From a virus (Duplodnaviria; Caudoviricetes), in IMG/VR virus record IMGVR_UViG_3300025087_000689: DNA of 64,000 nucleotides, one strand, 5' to 3'. Numbering within the stretch: position 1 is the first letter of the stretch; each line of letters opens with the position of its first letter. The notes beneath the pieces were generated by a model. That model saw nothing but the letters and a program-made list of their open reading frames with translations. It did not search any database and was not told the DNA's origin. Positions 21,635-44,651 of this stretch are shown here, one piece after another. The position numbers and the translations under genes were made by a program.

Positions 21635-21946
21635 ATGTCTGAAGTAACAAAAGAAATGATCGATGGTTGGAAAGCAAAGTATGGAAGAGTCGCTAAACTA
21701 TCTCTTGGCGGCATTGAGTGGTATTATCGTCCAATAAATTTGGAAGAGTATTATGCCGTTCAAGAATTAGCAAATACTACAGAAGGTAAATCTGAAGCAG
21801 TGGGTCAGGAACAAATCATCCGAGTAGCGGTATTATCTCCAGTAGTAACTGAAAATATACCAGCTGGTGTAACACTTAAGATGTCAGATGAGATACTAAA
21901 ACTGTCAGGATTCGTATCTGAAGAAATTAAACCAGAAGAGTTATAA
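21635..21946 (+). CDS. Tail assembly chaperone 1
   Basis: Small acidic protein after the tube genes (WKAKYGRV...YYRP...AGV...SDEILKLSGF). AGGAGG SD. Confidence 0.65.
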   Translation: MSEVTKEMIDGWKAKYGRVAKLSLGGIEWYYRPINLEEYYAVQELANTTEGKSEAVGQEQIIRVAVLSPVVTENIPAGVTLKMSDEILKLSGFVSEEIKPEEL

Positions 21947-22620
21947 TGAAAAACATTCCTTTAGGGGAATGGAAGGCTAAATATGGCAGGATCTTTAAAG
22001 TCCGGATAGAAGAGAAGGAAATATATTTCCGACTTTTAAATGCGGGCGAAATTGAGATTTGCAAAAAAACACCGAAAACAATAAGCAAATTAATAGATTC
22101 TGTTATACTTAATAATGAGTCGTTGAGTTCTACTGGTTCAAAGTACAAACTCAGCGACTTTATTATTAGAAATAGTTTTCCTAGTACCGACGATCAATTG
22201 AAGGAGAAAATCCTTCACCATAGATATAAAGTCAAAGATGACTTCACACTTAACTTAATAGCTAAGTTATGTAGTGTCTACGTCTCTTATACCCCCGATG
22301 ACCTAAAATCCAAAACTATAGATCAGCTACTGGAACTGGTAGCCATTGCCGAAGTTATGACTGGCAAACAATTACTCAATGATAAGAAGGGTAAGAAACC
22401 AGGTGTGATGAATACTAGAAGAGACACACAGGAACGAGATGAATCAAAATTTGCCAAACCCCCAGTAAATGAATTAATGGAAGAAACTACAAATGCTCTT
22501 CAAGCAGCTATGACAAAGTTTGGTAAAAAGGTACCGATACTTAGTGAGATTAAAGCTAAAACAAGCAAACCACTAACAGACTTACAAAGACAAATGAAAG
22601 AATTAAATAAGGCAATTTAA
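21946..22620 (+). CDS. Tail assembly chaperone 2 (paralogue of TAC1 with C-terminal extension)
   Basis: The N-terminus repeats WKAKYGR...IYFR. TAATG-coupled on both sides. Confidence 0.55.
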   Translation: MKNIPLGEWKAKYGRIFKVRIEEKEIYFRLLNAGEIEICKKTPKTISKLIDSVILNNESLSSTGSKYKLSDFIIRNSFPSTDDQLKEKILHHRYKVKDDFTLNLIAKLCSVYVSYTPDDLKSKTIDQLLELVAIAEVMTGKQLLNDKKGKKPGVMNTRRDTQERDESKFAKPPVNELMEETTNALQAAMTKFGKKVPILSEIKAKTSKPLTDLQRQMKELNKAI

Positions 22621-43300: not shown

Positions 43301-44651
43301 AAAAAAGTTAGTTGTGAATAATATAGGTTTTAATGGCATCTATTATAATATATATGGTAATAATCATCAATATAAAAAAGTACAACAACATCATATAGCC
43401 ACTGCTTATACTAATATTCTAAATAATAATATAATAGCTTCTGCCGACGGGTGGGCTAATCAGATTAAATTAGTTTGTCCGGTAGATCCGACAAATGCAA
43501 ATGATATAAACGATGTTCCTATCGAAGATAAGGGAGAATTGGTAACAACTATATTTAATTTAGATGATAATATACTTGATGATCAGATTCGTTCAAAACA
43601 AATGTTTATAAATAATATCGATCCTAGTATGTGGGATGATTCCATATGGGCTAAAAAAATATTACAGGGAGAAGGAACTTGGTGTAATATCGATGGTGAA
43701 CAATATACTGGATTGGAACAAAATGGAGAACCTAAAGTTAAAGAGCGACAATCTACTAAAGATGAGGATGTACAATATAGATTAAGCAGAAATGCATGGG
43801 AGTTATTACCATCAAGGTGGAGAGTAGGTATTAGTATTTTAGCTGAAGAAGCTAGAGATATGTATAATGGCGAATTAACTATTATTGGTGATAGCACTAT
43901 TAGACCATATGATGTTATTCATTTGATCGACTATGTTAATGACATGCATGGTTCATTTGAAGTCGGAAGGGTAATTCATTCTCTATCACCTCAGACTGGA
44001 TTTATTACTAGAATCAAACCCGATCTCATAGTTAATCAAAAGAATAAATTTAATACAGATGAATTATATGTGGCGTCAAATCTTATGTCTCAATCTTATA
44101 GTAGATCTATATTGATTGGTGTTGGTACTGTCGCTGGAATGGGATTAACTAGTTTGAGTGTATTTAATTTAGTGAATTCTGCTGTTAAATCTAGTGCCTT
44201 ACTTGCTGGAGTTTCCTCTACTTTAGGTATACTTGGGATTACAGCTGGTGTCGGATTAGTTGCGTTTGCTGGTTATAAAGCTATTAAATATCATCATGAG
44301 CGTATTATAATGATCATGAATAATATTATAGGTAGAGATTCATTAGAAATTTTACCTTTAACGTATCGTAATATTCCCTATGTTGCTGGTATTGAAGGAT
44401 ACAAGAAGGATAGTTATTTACGCCATATGATAAGTTCTTCTTTAGATGAAACTGGTAAGTATAGTGTTTTTGAAAGAATGGGATATATGAACGCTCCACT
44501 AGAGTTTGAATTTTATAGAAATGTGGTTGGTGATAGTCCAGTATGGTCATGGATACAGACAAATATATTGTCTAATAAAGAAGGCGTTAGTGGTCTAGAT
44601 AGCTTTGTGGCGGCTAAACGTGCGTTCTTTAATTTAGGAGAAACGAGATAA
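37356..44651 (+). CDS. Giant baseplate hub protein (gp27-like C-terminus) with N-terminal M15-like peptidase domain
   Basis: C-terminal LKPGMSILVKMGYSN...VEIICQGYGAEL and MYNGELTIIGDSTIRPYD...FEVGRVIHSLSPQTGFITRIKPD are hub-like. N-terminal ITS..R, CAVDIR and HIH motifs. Confidence 0.7.
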   Translation: MGKPTFENKSHDDEKSFAKMRKYEPLKDLVDVIDLLSKKYNIHITSLGRGFKPGFTTTTSVATALGLKDPLISIVNKFFNRTDVSENEFIYKKVIWESSDPINDHNFVKYSPHFWIPDQPFGCAVDIRSKNFTESQIQSIVNIIKAQNKELYVLVHSIKGNYPHIHLQHDGVYKAGLNTMKDLVDEACGYTKIRKTYSALNPAKLVKRDPDYVDTFKKLDNAICDGFTAADIAETLDIANQKPNLKDKKDTRTILPSDIDNNGLMEVLRIGDINFSVCPVTQISYSQSMQYVRFSTLRTVGDPKIANDTVPNNVTLNIIFPNADAINNQMRSLIAQFMVTPITIVQNRFITRTLKPLIINHKGETEANPLLSPEDESIWMIMTDLNVRSIPNFPEAFEVYITLEMFEDRVFGNKLKFLVDYKDLQEKYRRKQEIFGHQYIIPSEKTMLKSAADFKPGIINVTSDPNNSELYKNFYQSVANTFELYYPEQDTKTGGKLTVLYNSYNYSRENIRKVKKTMEEEYNQSLLETQDIIKELQPGEIKWFAGKGLNVIKPDVIQLINKTGRTTIDLLELTISNFESVKSLHNFRYSVMDPIFRFRQLSKDASIYVNRIGDELGLTSWDKQQVLKIFNSALGRIGTLEKYSTGLASAFKTDANGNPLSNQLTNPTPAQDIGRTDGLIGGLEALIGEMLFTVEGGKNEALSKRAAKINTALKKITELCLGDINEEKPGSNLDQDGLPTFIARYSSVDLIDGKDSISTGVSFSISNKVIPQQVIGWKQPTFQHLGRSDWSINMNIICKNDEAIRNIMFILNKMGVLSKQIQFTSPAKFINLDTTLHIQEGDPIFGVLGINSFVLNTVEVSSIPGQPGEYQINLGLEQADLSIHTAEKIEESSAKQKNKESSQLILKDILPVLKAIVINKDRKDYGQILDFEKIKDAIDNPNLNEYWKAYGVDSYDYMDKYNFYKLMLGTKKVTDPDKDWDLLVMDLFPTDTNFSSNKYFSSNKSGHAFITSIIKLNNLIITETAGNLIWPKGSVKTSLGLVESLQFYFESIGHLANASKNHVATQTVDKNSALWRALGVSAGGTALVGTVGTLIGIGPVGWGILMGVTAIALGGGAIGYVFSEDTLLAIKDKLPEILPAAFNITVNNRIIELAKEFLLDDTSLDVFSSDFEIGNGVILQDRMRSIREDIATSLKGCYNDFESQIQLASKKTGISSSFLDPAFYLYSDDFITVDLIRELRIDIQNRLSMLATRANINALQLGTVVADKYFPKTGSNKYNVELDKLLIPLPKDSLITQQDLQWVVDVRNKIVQINKNAFDDANKENIQKLMGLQNNTKEFEEVFLNDYWPERVKGERTSVVMEAAFARLQLINSALRFETIKSSLDKATEQVSRGRSSFRKDMASQIQLREYNKLFKDVEYPKVVARNPTMTWYEAIIDAGGIGNPYIGATSVDKVFSEINGKSMYTYFTNDGMRELLYQIETIAKCKKAMNNNTSAELMAAYNALEADPRMLQKRIDQIQSLQDILFKATLNDNTGNPIRIFPTFKIYFIEEDAPEWGIFNDFYDYSAVQEITVVKDRKSASDTCVIKLSNVAGKLTDSFAENIPEIGTDNLPLTSMMLKPGMSILVKMGYSNSQVELPVVFYGIIIEVAPGPIVEIICQGYGAELNEIIAPGEGVHHGVFGDVKALGDVATWAIQQATGLNHFGKLGYTSFGIKDTLRLSGTATTGLQGQMKIGSFITGLPGLNINDPRDDNIFLSYNIGNIKKEKQITGSLNLALEWLISKWELSGNLHFDWYIRDQSIWDVLSELVYFSPDFLKIVLPYNDNLFPFIPKIRNTLYVGPRRGYYKYTDMFSMISVDNNIEFSNANKVADILFRMAEDITYNDEIPHTDIIDKLVADFKSLTDNDTLFKTAIFYYFGIAETGSTTVQAFNAQEIGKRDQIIKLSKAFRKEFTNYETILTDYKTIQKGSKLEHINRNFEENLKKLVVNNIGFNGIYYNIYGNNHQYKKVQQHHIATAYTNILNNNIIASADGWANQIKLVCPVDPTNANDINDVPIEDKGELVTTIFNLDDNILDDQIRSKQMFINNIDPSMWDDSIWAKKILQGEGTWCNIDGEQYTGLEQNGEPKVKERQSTKDEDVQYRLSRNAWELLPSRWRVGISILAEEARDMYNGELTIIGDSTIRPYDVIHLIDYVNDMHGSFEVGRVIHSLSPQTGFITRIKPDLIVNQKNKFNTDELYVASNLMSQSYSRSILIGVGTVAGMGLTSLSVFNLVNSAVKSSALLAGVSSTLGILGITAGVGLVAFAGYKAIKYHHERIIMIMNNIIGRDSLEILPLTYRNIPYVAGIEGYKKDSYLRHMISSSLDETGKYSVFERMGYMNAPLEFEFYRNVVGDSPVWSWIQTNILSNKEGVSGLDSFVAAKRAFFNLGETR

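What the first reader, a model, noticed from the sequence alone, without database searches (positions are those of the whole stretch)
21635..44651. Candidate new system: translationally coupled tail cassette delivering an RNA polymerase and two nucleases
Seen: an unbroken TAATG chain links TAC1, TAC2, the 2490-aa protein (nuclease), the 2355-aa protein (exonuclease + RNAP), a 65-aa protein and the 2431-aa hub (peptidase), about 23 kb in total. No other tape-measure candidate exists in the window. Both cargo-like giants are helical and carry Gly-rich hydrophobic segments. Known: TAC-TMP-hub is the conserved myophage order and TMPs are ejected into the cell; crAss-like phages eject a single-chain two-barrel RNAP but are short-tailed podoviruses. 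Inference: the tape-measure role is split or shared between enzyme-bearing polypeptides loaded in or with the tail tube, so that wall breach, membrane channel formation, DNA processing and host-independent early transcription arrive in one injection.
Basis: inference. Interest (0 to 1): 0.88.

Follow-up and report, generated by a model that had tools for sequence, protein, structure and literature searches.

The report
Tail tape-measure protein hiding an RNA polymerase
This is the tail-core gene block of a giant contractile-tailed phage related to Bacillus phage 0305phi8-36, and its tape-measure-position protein very probably contains the catalytic barrel of an RNA polymerase, a trick so far shown only in one long-tailed Thermus phage.

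Summary
The ORFs and the five consecutive TAATG stop/start overlaps are exactly as described. The cassette is not a new system. It is the conserved tail-lumen and hub module of 0305phi8-36-like jumbo myophages: a two-gene chaperone, a gp145-like virion protein, a tape-measure-position giant, a 65-aa ORF and a giant gp27-type hub. I found the same module on nine metagenomic contigs and in cultured Bacillus, Moorella and Acinetobacter phages.

- **2490-aa protein:** it has a real PD-(D/E)XK nuclease domain. Its LAGLIDADG "nuclease" is a mobile intein (aa 1433-1848), not cargo.
- **Not verified:** the second (beta-like) barrel, the DEDDh exonuclease (invariant motifs only) and the hub peptidase (LAS-type motif only).

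A tape-measure-fused virion RNA polymerase is already known (Thermus siphophage P23-45). This is therefore a new variant of a known kind, in contractile-tailed jumbo phages. Earlier notes of this scan on the same genome had flagged the same domains.

The parts
14925..17795 (+). Tail sheath (context, upstream of the cassette)
   Evidence: phrog_16991 tail sheath, E 3.2e-75
17807..21621 (+). Tail tube and two tube paralogues (three ORFs: 17807-18487, 18535-19929, 20122-21621)
   Evidence: phrog_9206 (E 7e-39, 1e-37, 3e-5). This is the family of 0305phi8-36 gp140/gp141, annotated as tail tube and tube paralogue
21635..21946 (+). TAC1, 103-aa tail assembly chaperone (G-like)
   Evidence: BLASTP to KLEB27-3 gp030 (9e-9), Moorella CDS24 (1.5e-8) and the 0305phi8-36 gp143 C-terminal domain (6e-5). 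Shares its N-terminal WKAKYGR block with TAC2
21946..22620 (+). TAC2, 224-aa chaperone (GT-like: G-like N-terminus plus an extension, made without a frameshift)
   Evidence: N-terminus paralogous to TAC1 (E 1e-6). phrog_19076 on both. Conserved in L003
22620..30092 (+). g1, 2490-aa gp145-like virion protein (2074-aa extein)
   Evidence: BLASTP to 0305phi8-36 gp145 in three blocks, E 8e-29 to 6e-23. gp145 was found in virions by mass spectrometry (record note). 20 relatives, with and without the intein
26916..28163 (+). Intein with LAGLIDADG homing endonuclease (g1 aa 1433-1848)
   Evidence: C1 at 'GDAF|CVSKN' and 'ATHN|T' at the C-junction. Pfam LAGLIDADG_3 4.2e-5. PI-PkoII 8.7e-5. Homologues of about 2084-2128 aa lack it; those of 2463-2497 aa carry Hint/Intein_splicing
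28320..28802 (+). PD-(D/E)XK (Cas4/RecB-like) nuclease domain of g1 (aa 1901-2061)
   Evidence: phrog_1706 4.8e-16, phrog_2506 exonuclease 2e-9, phrog_1990 Cas4-domain 2.9e-5. Motifs HID...EIK...QLNFY are visible. The domain is conserved in gp145
29250..29369 (+). Gly-rich hydrophobic segment of g1 (aa 2211-2250)
   Evidence: Composition scan. Aligned with the corresponding Gly-rich stretch of gp145
30092..37159 (+). g2, 2355-aa tape-measure-position giant
   Evidence: Occupies the position of 0305phi8-36 gp146, 'hypothetical tape measure'. Family of about 2360-2470-aa proteins, always between a g1 homologue and the 65-aa ORF plus hub
31544..32266 (+). DEDDh-exonuclease-like motif set of g2 (aa 485-725)
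   Evidence: D495, E497, D619, H716 and D721 are invariant in nine homologues down to 21% identity. No profile or fold support: hhalign to DnaQ E 0.64; Atlas gave nothing
35081..35929 (+). Beta-prime-type double-psi beta-barrel region of g2 (aa 1664-1946; model residues 25-307)
35624..35644 (+). Candidate metal-binding motif RADSDGD (D1847, D1849, D1851)
   Evidence: Invariant in all family members. hhalign register SRYP/NRAP and RADSDGD/NADFDGD with E. coli RpoC, E 0.013
36692..37156 (+). Highly conserved C-terminal tail of g2 with a hydrophobic Gly-rich segment (aa 2201-2355)
   Evidence: About 70% column identity here against about 25-30% elsewhere. It is the only part that phmmer aligns with P0009
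37159..37356 (+). Conserved 65-aa ORF
   Evidence: A 64-65-aa orthologue lies between the g2 and hub genes in L003, L004, L008, L009, L016 and the P0009 contig
37356..44651 (+). g3, 2431-aa baseplate hub protein (gp147/gp27 type)
   Evidence: phrog_20474 1e-45. tblastn to 0305phi8-36 gp147 and relatives over aa 1533-2288. gp147 was assigned as a T4 gp27 homologue by Hardies 2007
37668..37865 (+). LAS/M15-type zinc-peptidase-like motif in g3 (S111-x-H113, D126, H164-x-H166)
   Evidence: Invariant in 10 family members. Only 1 of 10 members reaches Pfam Peptidase_M15_4, at E 0.054. No PDB profile hit
46088..47365 (+). Baseplate J / gp6-like wedge protein (context, downstream)
   Evidence: Pfam Baseplate_J 6.4e-22; phrog_6 2.5e-28

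Best explanation
The region is the tail-lumen and hub module of an uncultured jumbo myophage of the 0305phi8-36 lineage. It encodes:
- two paralogous chaperones (a frameshift-free G/GT pair);
- a gp145-like virion protein with a PD-(D/E)XK nuclease, whose gene also hosts a mobile LAGLIDADG intein;
- a tape-measure-position giant;
- a conserved 65-aa protein;
- a giant gp27-type hub.

The tape-measure-position giant (g2) contains, in its last third, a beta-prime-type double-psi beta-barrel with an invariant RxP...DxDGD metal site. I read it as a virion RNA polymerase built into, or standing in for, the tape measure. In this reading its strongly conserved Gly-rich C-terminal tail docks it on the hub. 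It is expelled through the tube on contraction and transcribes the first phage genes as the DNA enters. This is the mechanism proposed for Thermus phage P23-45 gp96.

Shown: gene order, homologies, the intein, the nuclease domain, motif invariance, and fold resemblance at modest scores.

Inferred: catalytic activity, the second barrel, presence in the tail lumen, ejection, and any role of the two nuclease-like domains.

Confidence by layer: cassette identity about 0.95; beta-prime-type barrel about 0.85; active tail-delivered RNA polymerase about 0.55. The figure given for the whole statement is the last one.
For: - Synteny and homology with 0305phi8-36 and with KLEB27-3, MTATph1 and ME3. gp145 and gp146 were found in virions by mass spectrometry (record notes).
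- The cassette is conserved on L003, L004, L008, L009, L010, L014-L017 and the P0009 contig.
- D1847/D1849/D1851 and R1802/P1804 are invariant down to 21% identity.
- The same motif pair sits at 75-80% of the length in positional orthologues without detectable sequence similarity: L010 NRFPT..NADTDGDQ, KLEB27-3 gp034 NRYPT..KADYDGD, L017 RRYPT..GDSDSD, L014/15 KKDFDGD, ME3 gp36 SREP..GDHDQD.
- Control: the pair occurs once in 137,502 residues of the neighbouring giants' families.
- The core-family HMM finds L010's site at E 3e-6.
- The only Pfam hit of KLEB27-3 gp034 is RNA_pol_Rpb1_2, on the motif, at E 0.0072.
- hhalign puts the motifs in register with E. coli RpoC (E 0.013) and P23-45 gp96 (E 0.054).
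- The AF2 model has pLDDT 80-90 around the motif. Its strand-strand-helix-loop-strand order matches the beta-prime barrel.
- All 50 best VIA rows and 30 of 50 Foldseek rows are RNAP largest subunits. In the Foldseek-independent search the only hits on that region are RNAPs.
- Precedent for a tape-measure-fused virion RNAP: PMC10770324.
Against: - AFDB clusters gave a mixed list.
- The Pfam hit in KLEB27-3 is below the curated cut-off.
- A second, beta-like barrel was not found. The long model failed (pLDDT 43).
- There is no similarity to P23-45 gp96 beyond the motif.
- 0305phi8-36 gp146, the only family-position protein with a tape-measure assignment in the literature, has no DxDxD. So the barrel is not universal in the lineage.
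- If aa 440-2100 are globular enzyme domains, little helical rod is left to measure a long tail.
- Virion presence of g2 itself is unknown.
Confidence: 0.55

Rival explanations
1. g2 is an ordinary structural tape measure or tail-lumen protein. The barrel is a non-catalytic relic or scaffold domain, and the phage relies on host RNAP or on a separate phage RNAP encoded elsewhere.
For: - No significant match to any RNAP model.
- No second barrel was identified.
- 0305phi8-36 gp146 lacks the motif, yet that phage has a separate YonO-like RNAP.
- The strongest conservation is in the C-terminal docking tail, not in the barrel.
Against: - Strict invariance of all three Asp plus R and P at 21% identity, and recurrence in unrelated-looking orthologues, point to selection on a metal site.
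- The control rate of the motif pair is about 0.02 per protein.
Confidence: 0.17
2. The barrel belongs to a polymerase of another specificity. Candidates are a proofreading DNA polymerase or primer-extending enzyme (two-barrel like archaeal PolD) or an RNA-dependent polymerase (QDE-1-like), working together with the fused DEDDh-like exonuclease. It would not be a promoter-dependent transcriptase.
For: - Invariant DEDDh-like motifs lie N-terminal to the barrel. A fused 3'-5' exonuclease is the hallmark of replicative polymerases, not of RNAPs.
- An RdRP row appears in the AFDB list.
- The two-barrel superfamily includes RdRPs and PolD (PMC7824862).
Against: - Structure hits are to DNA-dependent RNAP largest subunits. 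No PolD or QDE-1 chain is in the top rows.
- The exonuclease itself is unverified.
- The RxP...(N/R)ADxDGD wording is closest to cellular beta-prime.
Confidence: 0.12
3. The tape-measure role is truly split or shared between g1 and g2. Both are threaded in the tube lumen, and one contraction delivers a wall peptidase, membrane channel, two nucleases and an RNAP as an integrated new system.
For: - Both giants follow the chaperones and are translationally coupled.
- Both have a Gly-rich hydrophobic segment near the C-terminus.
- Both positional counterparts are virion proteins in 0305phi8-36.
- The g1-g2-65aa-hub order is conserved everywhere.
Against: - Nothing tested here places either protein in the lumen.
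- One 'nuclease' is an intein, one is motif-only, and the peptidase is motif-only.
- g1 and g2 are not paralogues.
- The architecture is a known lineage trait, not a new system.
Confidence: 0.1

Closest known systems
Thermus phage P23-45 gp96, tape-measure-fused two-barrel virion RNA polymerase (Chaban et al., Nat Commun 2024, PMC10770324)
   Same: - A giant protein in the tape-measure gene position carries a DxDGD beta-prime-type barrel.
- It is undetectable by sequence searches beyond the motif.
- It has a hydrophobic segment elsewhere in the chain.
- The proposed delivery is through the tail for pre-early transcription.
   Different: - gp96 is 5002 aa in a siphovirus with a non-contractile 800-nm tail, and its RNAP is at the N-terminus (DFDGD 779-783).
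- Here the tail is contractile (sheath gene present), the barrel is at aa about 1660-1950 of 2355, and a DEDDh-like motif set lies upstream.
- There is no profile similarity to gp96 (hhalign probability 0.3).
- Activity and virion presence are shown for gp96 and not here.
Bacillus phage 0305phi8-36 tail module gp143-gp147 (Hardies et al. 2007, PMC2147016)
   Same: - Same gene order: two-gene chaperonin, giant virion protein with PD-(D/E)XK (gp145 = g1 homologue), giant at the tape-measure position, and a hyperplastic gp27-type hub (gp147 = g3 homologue).
- It is flanked the same way: sheath and tube paralogues upstream, gpJ-like baseplate downstream.
   Different: - gp146 shows no sequence similarity to g2 and has no DxDxD.
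- gp147 carries SLT, NlpC/P60 and M23 domains, whereas g3 has only a LAS-type motif.
- gp145 has no intein.
- There is no 65-aa ORF in 0305phi8-36.
crAss-like phage gp66 single-chain two-barrel virion RNAP
   Same: A giant virion protein with a DxDxD barrel, encoded among tail and structural genes and ejected into the host.
   Different: - crAss-like phages are podoviruses whose cargo proteins are stored in the capsid and muzzle, not at a tape-measure position.
- No gp66 chain appeared among the structure hits, and it was not compared directly.
YonO-type single-subunit RNAPs (SPbeta; also a separate gene in 0305phi8-36, ABS83659.1; Iyer et al. 2021, PMC7824862)
   Same: A single polypeptide with a beta-prime-like DxDGD barrel in a phage of the same lineage.
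   Different: - YonO-type enzymes are about 800-aa non-virion proteins encoded outside the tail module.
- Homology to g2 was not tested because no YonO sequence was fetched.

Membership tests
Two-barrel (DPBB) RNA polymerases | Invariant DxDxD metal-binding motif in the beta-prime-type barrel | tested here: met
   D1847/D1849/D1851 are invariant in all 9-11 homologues. The motif is present in positional orthologues of other lineages.
Two-barrel (DPBB) RNA polymerases | Beta-prime-type double-psi beta-barrel fold around the motif, with the upstream RxP strand in register | tested here: inconclusive
Two-barrel (DPBB) RNA polymerases | Second (beta-type) barrel supplying two basic residues to the active site | tested here: inconclusive
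   The model of aa 861-2060 failed (pLDDT 43). The candidate K1040/K1047 are not conserved in the wider family. Other invariant basic residues exist (R1095, R1108, R1244, R1267) but are unassigned.
Two-barrel (DPBB) RNA polymerases | Templated RNA synthesis | not testable with these tools
   Needs a biochemical assay.
Tape-measure-fused virion RNAP (P23-45 gp96 type) | RNAP barrel within the protein encoded at the tape-measure position, downstream of the tail chaperones and upstream of the hub or tip | tested here: met
   Gene order. It is one gene removed from the chaperones, as in 0305phi8-36.
Tape-measure-fused virion RNAP (P23-45 gp96 type) | Sequence or profile homology to gp96 | tested here: not met
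   hhalign of A2 against gp96 1-1200 gives probability 0.3. Only the motif aligns, at E 0.054. So it works like gp96, but membership of that family is not claimed.
Tape-measure-fused virion RNAP (P23-45 gp96 type) | Protein present in virions | not testable with these tools
   Indirect only. 0305phi8-36 gp146 was detected by mass spectrometry, and KLEB27-3 gp034 is annotated 'structural protein'.
Tail tape measure protein | Position between chaperones and hub; hydrophobic Gly-rich segment and conserved C-terminus | tested here: met
Tail tape measure protein | Mostly extended alpha-helix whose length scales with tail length | tested here: inconclusive
   The low-confidence model is roughly 60% helical with beta islands. 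The tail length of this phage is unknown.
PD-(D/E)XK nuclease (Cas4/RecB-like), in g1 | Profile match plus D...(D/E)xK and QxxxY motifs | tested here: met
   phrog_1706 4.8e-16, phrog_2506 2e-9, phrog_1990 2.9e-5. HID, EIK and QLNFY are seen. No flanking Cys cluster, so it is not a true Fe-S Cas4.
Intein with LAGLIDADG homing endonuclease, in g1 | Cys1, C-terminal HN followed by Thr+1, Hint and LAGLIDADG domains, presence/absence polymorphism among host-protein homologues | tested here: met
DEDDh (DnaQ-like) 3'-5' exonuclease, in g2 | ExoI DxE, ExoII D and ExoIII Hx4D motifs, plus the RNase H-like fold | tested here: inconclusive
   The motif residues are invariant. No Pfam, PHROG or PDB hit. 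hhalign to DnaQ gives E 0.64.
gp27/gpD-type baseplate hub, g3 | Homology to hub proteins of the lineage, positioned before the sheath-initiator and baseplate J genes | tested here: met
   phrog_20474 1e-45. tblastn to gp147 and relatives. Neighbours in relatives. Direct comparison with T4 gp27 was not done and rests on Hardies 2007.
LAS / M15 zinc peptidase, N-terminus of g3 | SxH...AxD...HxH zinc ligands and a profile match | tested here: inconclusive
   The motif is invariant in 10 members. Pfam Peptidase_M15_4 appears in 1 of 10 at E 0.054. No PDB profile hit.

The most novel reading that the evidence does not exclude
A whole lineage of contractile-tailed jumbo phages, including cultured Bacillus and Acinetobacter phages, injects through the tail tube a single-chain two-barrel polymerase built into the tape-measure-position protein. 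The polymerase is fused to a DEDDh proofreading-type exonuclease and is accompanied by a second lumen protein carrying a PD-(D/E)XK nuclease. That would be an enzyme set unlike any described virion RNAP. It would be the first polymerase of this superfamily with a fused 3'-5' exonuclease.
Probability: 0.3. Interest if true: 0.82.

Novelty: new variant of a known kind. Interest (0 to 1): 0.62.

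Why it matters
If the barrel is an active polymerase, tape-measure-borne virion RNA polymerases are not a curiosity of one Thermus siphophage. They would be a recurrent solution for host-independent early transcription, present in contractile-tailed jumbo phages of Firmicutes, Acinetobacter and uncultured hosts.

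It would also give a function to the largest unannotated genes of these phages. It would explain why this gene sits at the tape-measure position yet evolves like an enzyme, with invariant acidic and basic residues.

Because cultured relatives carry the same motif (KLEB27-3 gp034, ME3 gp36), the idea is directly testable at the bench.

The fused DEDDh-like motif set, if real, would be new for the two-barrel superfamily.

Tried and rejected
- **Direct searches on g2.** These found nothing: Pfam, PHROGs and NCBIfam, PDB phmmer and family-profile hmmsearch, tblastn against 50,697 phage records, BLASTP against gp146 and g1, and hhalign against P23-45 gp96.
- **Pfam on motif fragments.** Scanning eight family members gave only noise.
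- **Scans for more relatives.** Scans of viral and metagenome contig collections with the family alignment found none.
- **First AlphaFold job** (aa 861-2060, six sequences). It was unusable at pLDDT 43, so I did not search with it.
- **Iterated local HMMs.** They did not reach KLEB27-3, L014, L017, ME3, RpoC or gp96 beyond the bare motif.
- **ESM Atlas.** Look-ups gave no named relative for the RNAP region or the DEDDh-like region. They gave only a sub-threshold LPD38 lead for g1 aa 1058-1432.
- **AFDB cluster search.** The list was mixed and non-significant.
- **g3 family profile.** It found no solved structure.
- **Whole genome.** None is held for this window, so I could not look for a second RNAP gene.
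- **Rejected reading: the LAGLIDADG domain is delivered cargo.** It is an intein.
- **Rejected reading: K1040/K1047 are the beta-barrel lysines.** They are not conserved.
- **Rejected reading: the RNAP noted for 0305phi8-36 by Iyer et al. is gp146.** The accessions differ: ABS83659.1 against ABS83704.1.

Full report
**Observation**

The window is a single-strand run of phage structural genes at 29-40% G+C. The six ORFs of the finding are at the stated coordinates. Each of the five junctions reads TAATG, so the stop of one gene overlaps the start of the next by one base. The same overlap occurs at four further junctions in the window (47365, 50953, 57536, 63299). It is therefore a habit of the genome rather than a mark of this cassette. 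The run of five is only mildly unusual, but it is largely kept in relatives.

**Context**

- Upstream lie a tail sheath (phrog_16991, E 3e-75) and three paralogues of the 0305phi8-36 tail tube family.
- Downstream lies a Baseplate_J protein.
- tblastn of the 2490-aa protein (g1) and the 2431-aa protein (g3) against phage records finds the same small set of jumbo myophages: Bacillus phages 0305phi8-36, KLEB27-3, Edson and WH1, Moorella phage MTATph1 and Acinetobacter phage ME3.
- In 0305phi8-36 the order is sheath, tube, tube paralogue, gp143/gp144 'tail chaperonin', gp145 (virion protein by mass spectrometry), gp146 ('hypothetical tape measure', also in virions) and gp147 (hub with lytic domains).
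- Hardies et al. 2007 described exactly this. [quoted passage not shown]

So the cassette is a known lineage trait, not a new system. I found it again on nine metagenomic contigs (L003, L004, L008, L009, L010, L014-L017) and on the contig of P0009. Most of these have a 64-65-aa ORF between the second giant and the hub.

**Chaperones**

TAC1 and TAC2 share an N-terminal block (E 1e-6). TAC1 matches KLEB27-3 gp030 (9e-9), Moorella CDS24 (1.5e-8) and the C-terminal domain of gp143 (6e-5). A short protein plus a longer one with the same N-terminus reproduces lambda G/GT without a frameshift.

**g1 (2490 aa)**

- It aligns with gp145 in three blocks (E 8e-29 to 6e-23).
- It contains a PD-(D/E)XK domain at aa 1901-2061 (phrog_1706 4.8e-16; exonuclease and Cas4-domain families as well), with HID, EIK and QLNFY motifs visible.
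- The LAGLIDADG signal (Pfam 4.2e-5, PI-PkoII 8.7e-5) belongs to an intein. It starts with Cys at 'GDAF|CVSKN', ends with 'ATHN|T', and spans 416 aa (nt 26916-28163).
- Homologues come in two sizes, about 2084-2128 aa without the intein and 2463-2497 aa with Hint/Intein_splicing hits. The endonuclease is therefore a selfish element, not cargo.
- A Gly-rich hydrophobic stretch lies at aa 2211-2250.

**g2 (2355 aa)**

Nothing is found by Pfam, PHROGs, NCBIfam, PDB or phage tblastn, and there is no BLASTP similarity to gp146.

An exhaustive HMMER search of 1.84 billion representatives found only a small family (P0003-P0005, P0007, fragments, and P0009 through its C-terminus). The word-indexed search added P0002. 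BLASTP in a small database shows P0009 and L016 to be full-length homologues at about 21% identity.

Conservation peaks at aa 450-550, 850-900 and 1800-1850. It is highest, at about 70%, in the last 150 aa, which include a hydrophobic Gly-rich segment.

**The polymerase question**

1. *Motif invariance.* g2 has one DxDxD, RADSDGD at 1845-1851. D1847, D1849 and D1851, and R1802 and P1804 44 residues upstream, are invariant across the family.
2. *Register with known RNAPs.* hhalign places the profile on E. coli beta-prime in the expected register. SRYP aligns with NRAP, and RADSDGD with NADFDGD, with one 11-residue insertion (E 0.013 on the fragment, 0.082 on full RpoC). It aligns likewise on P23-45 gp96, FRNP and VDFDGD (E 0.054). 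These values are not significant.
3. *Comparative signal.* The positional orthologues in other lineages share no detectable similarity with g2 apart from L010 (HMM E 3e-6). All carry the same pair at 75-80% of their length:

| Orthologue | Motif pair |
|---|---|
| L008 | GRYP..GDLDGD |
| L010 | NRFPT..NADTDGDQ |
| L016 | RPP..AADFDGD |
| L014 / L015 | KFP..KKDFDGD |
| L017 | RRYPT..GDSDSD |
| KLEB27-3 gp034 | NRYPT..KADYDGD |
| ME3 gp36 | SREP..GDHDQD |

. In 137,502 residues of the g1 and g3 families the pair RxP..DxD[GS]D occurs once. The only Pfam hit of KLEB27-3 gp034 is RNA_pol_Rpb1_2, on the motif, at E 0.0072 and 17 bits. That is below the cut-off of 25.3.
4. *Structure.*
   - A first model of aa 861-2060 with six sequences failed (pLDDT 43).
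   - A second model of aa 1640-2100 with eleven sequences reached pLDDT 70 and pTM 0.62, with 80-90 over residues 40-320.
   - Foldseek against the PDB gave no significant hit (best E 0.23), but 30 of the top 50 rows are chains of RNA polymerase entries. They include bacterial, archaeal, Pol I-IV, ASFV, vaccinia and phage AR9 enzymes, plus a designed DPBB.
   - The model's order of elements matches the barrel: strand ending in RxP, strand ETFVY, helix, DxDGD loop, strand.
   - BFVD was enriched in viral RNAP subunits, again without significance. AFDB clusters were mixed.

I conclude that a beta-prime-type barrel is very likely (about 0.85). A complete, active two-barrel RNAP is likely but unproven (about 0.55-0.6).

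The second barrel was not identified.

**DEDDh-like motifs**

D495/E497, D619 and H716-x4-D721 are invariant in nine sequences. The wording fits ExoI and ExoIII well. This stays a motif-level lead.

**g3 (2431 aa)**

- It belongs to the gp147 hub family (phrog_20474 1e-45; tblastn over aa 1533-2288) and has several hydrophobic segments.
- Distant relatives carry M23, NlpC/P60, SLT or glucosaminidase domains, but g3 and its near relatives show none.
- Their N-termini share an invariant S-x-H, A-x-D, H-x-H pattern typical of LAS/M15 zinc peptidases. Support is weak: Peptidase_M15_4 in one of ten members at E 0.054, and no PDB profile hit.

**What is known**

The direct precedent is Thermus siphophage P23-45. 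Its 5002-aa tape measure gp96 has an N-terminal two-barrel virion RNAP (DFDGD 779-783). That enzyme is flat and clamp-less, is found in virions, is active in vitro and transcribes pre-early genes. The authors note that such RNAPs are unrecognisable by sequence beyond the motif (PMC10770324 and its preprint). Their survey files that I could search do not list the 0305phi8-36 tape-measure proteins.

Iyer et al. 2021 report a YonO-like RNAP in 0305phi8-36 (ABS83659.1). That is a different gene from gp146 (ABS83704.1), and gp146 has no DxDxD.

Four further literature searches found no report of an RNAP in the tape-measure-position protein of a myophage.

**Verdict**

The 'new system' framing is not, and the precedent was missed. 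What remains is a probable virion RNA polymerase barrel in the tape-measure-position protein of a lineage of contractile-tailed jumbo phages. It sits in the C-terminal third, and the proteins show no detectable homology to gp96. A possible fused exonuclease lies upstream, and a nuclease-bearing partner protein is encoded next to it.

That is a new variant of a known kind, and it is testable in cultured relatives. Delivery through the tube, activity, the second barrel, the exonuclease and the peptidase are all inference.

Earlier notes of this scan on the same genome had flagged the same domains. I used their coordinates as leads and tested them as described above.

Noticed in passing
L011:17381-22894 (Moorella phage MTATph1): The tape-measure-position gene is only 1309 aa and has no DxDxD. 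A transposase gene follows it directly, which looks like an insertion-sequence disruption of that gene in a cultured phage.
   Followed up: no
L012:11292-18445 (Bacillus phage KLEB27-3): The g1 homologue is split into gp031 (1340 aa) and gp033 (677 aa), with a 211-aa ORF between them. This is roughly where the window's g1 carries its intein, so it may be an intron or homing element at the same hot spot.
   Followed up: no
window 37159-37356: A 64-65-aa ORF rich in Ile, Asn and Asp is conserved between the tape-measure-position gene and the hub in most metagenomic relatives. It is absent from 0305phi8-36. Its function is unknown; it could be an adaptor between the conserved g2 C-terminus and the hub.
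   Followed up: partly
window 25791-26915 (g1 aa 1058-1432): This is the most widely conserved block of g1, also found in ME3 gp35 and gp145, and it is the block interrupted by the intein. It gave only a sub-threshold Atlas lead to LPD38, a 'large polyvalent protein-associated domain' (score 0.86).
   Followed up: partly
window 9583-10203: An endonuclease VII-like ORF (phrog_1035, E 6.7e-7) sits among the structural genes and overlaps the next gene's GTG start by 26 nt. It is probably another mobile nuclease.
   Followed up: no
L010:20436-21131: A GIY-YIG homing-endonuclease gene is inserted right after baseplate J in a distant relative of the cassette.
   Followed up: no
window 2815-8019: A 1734-aa ORF upstream of the neck and sheath genes has no Pfam hit.
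   Followed up: no
L001:24089-31702 (0305phi8-36 gp146): The literature's tape measure of the type phage lacks the DxDxD motif that its positional counterparts in KLEB27-3, ME3 and all metagenomic relatives carry. Meanwhile 0305phi8-36 encodes a separate YonO-like RNAP. This may be loss or replacement of the tail-borne enzyme.
   Followed up: partly
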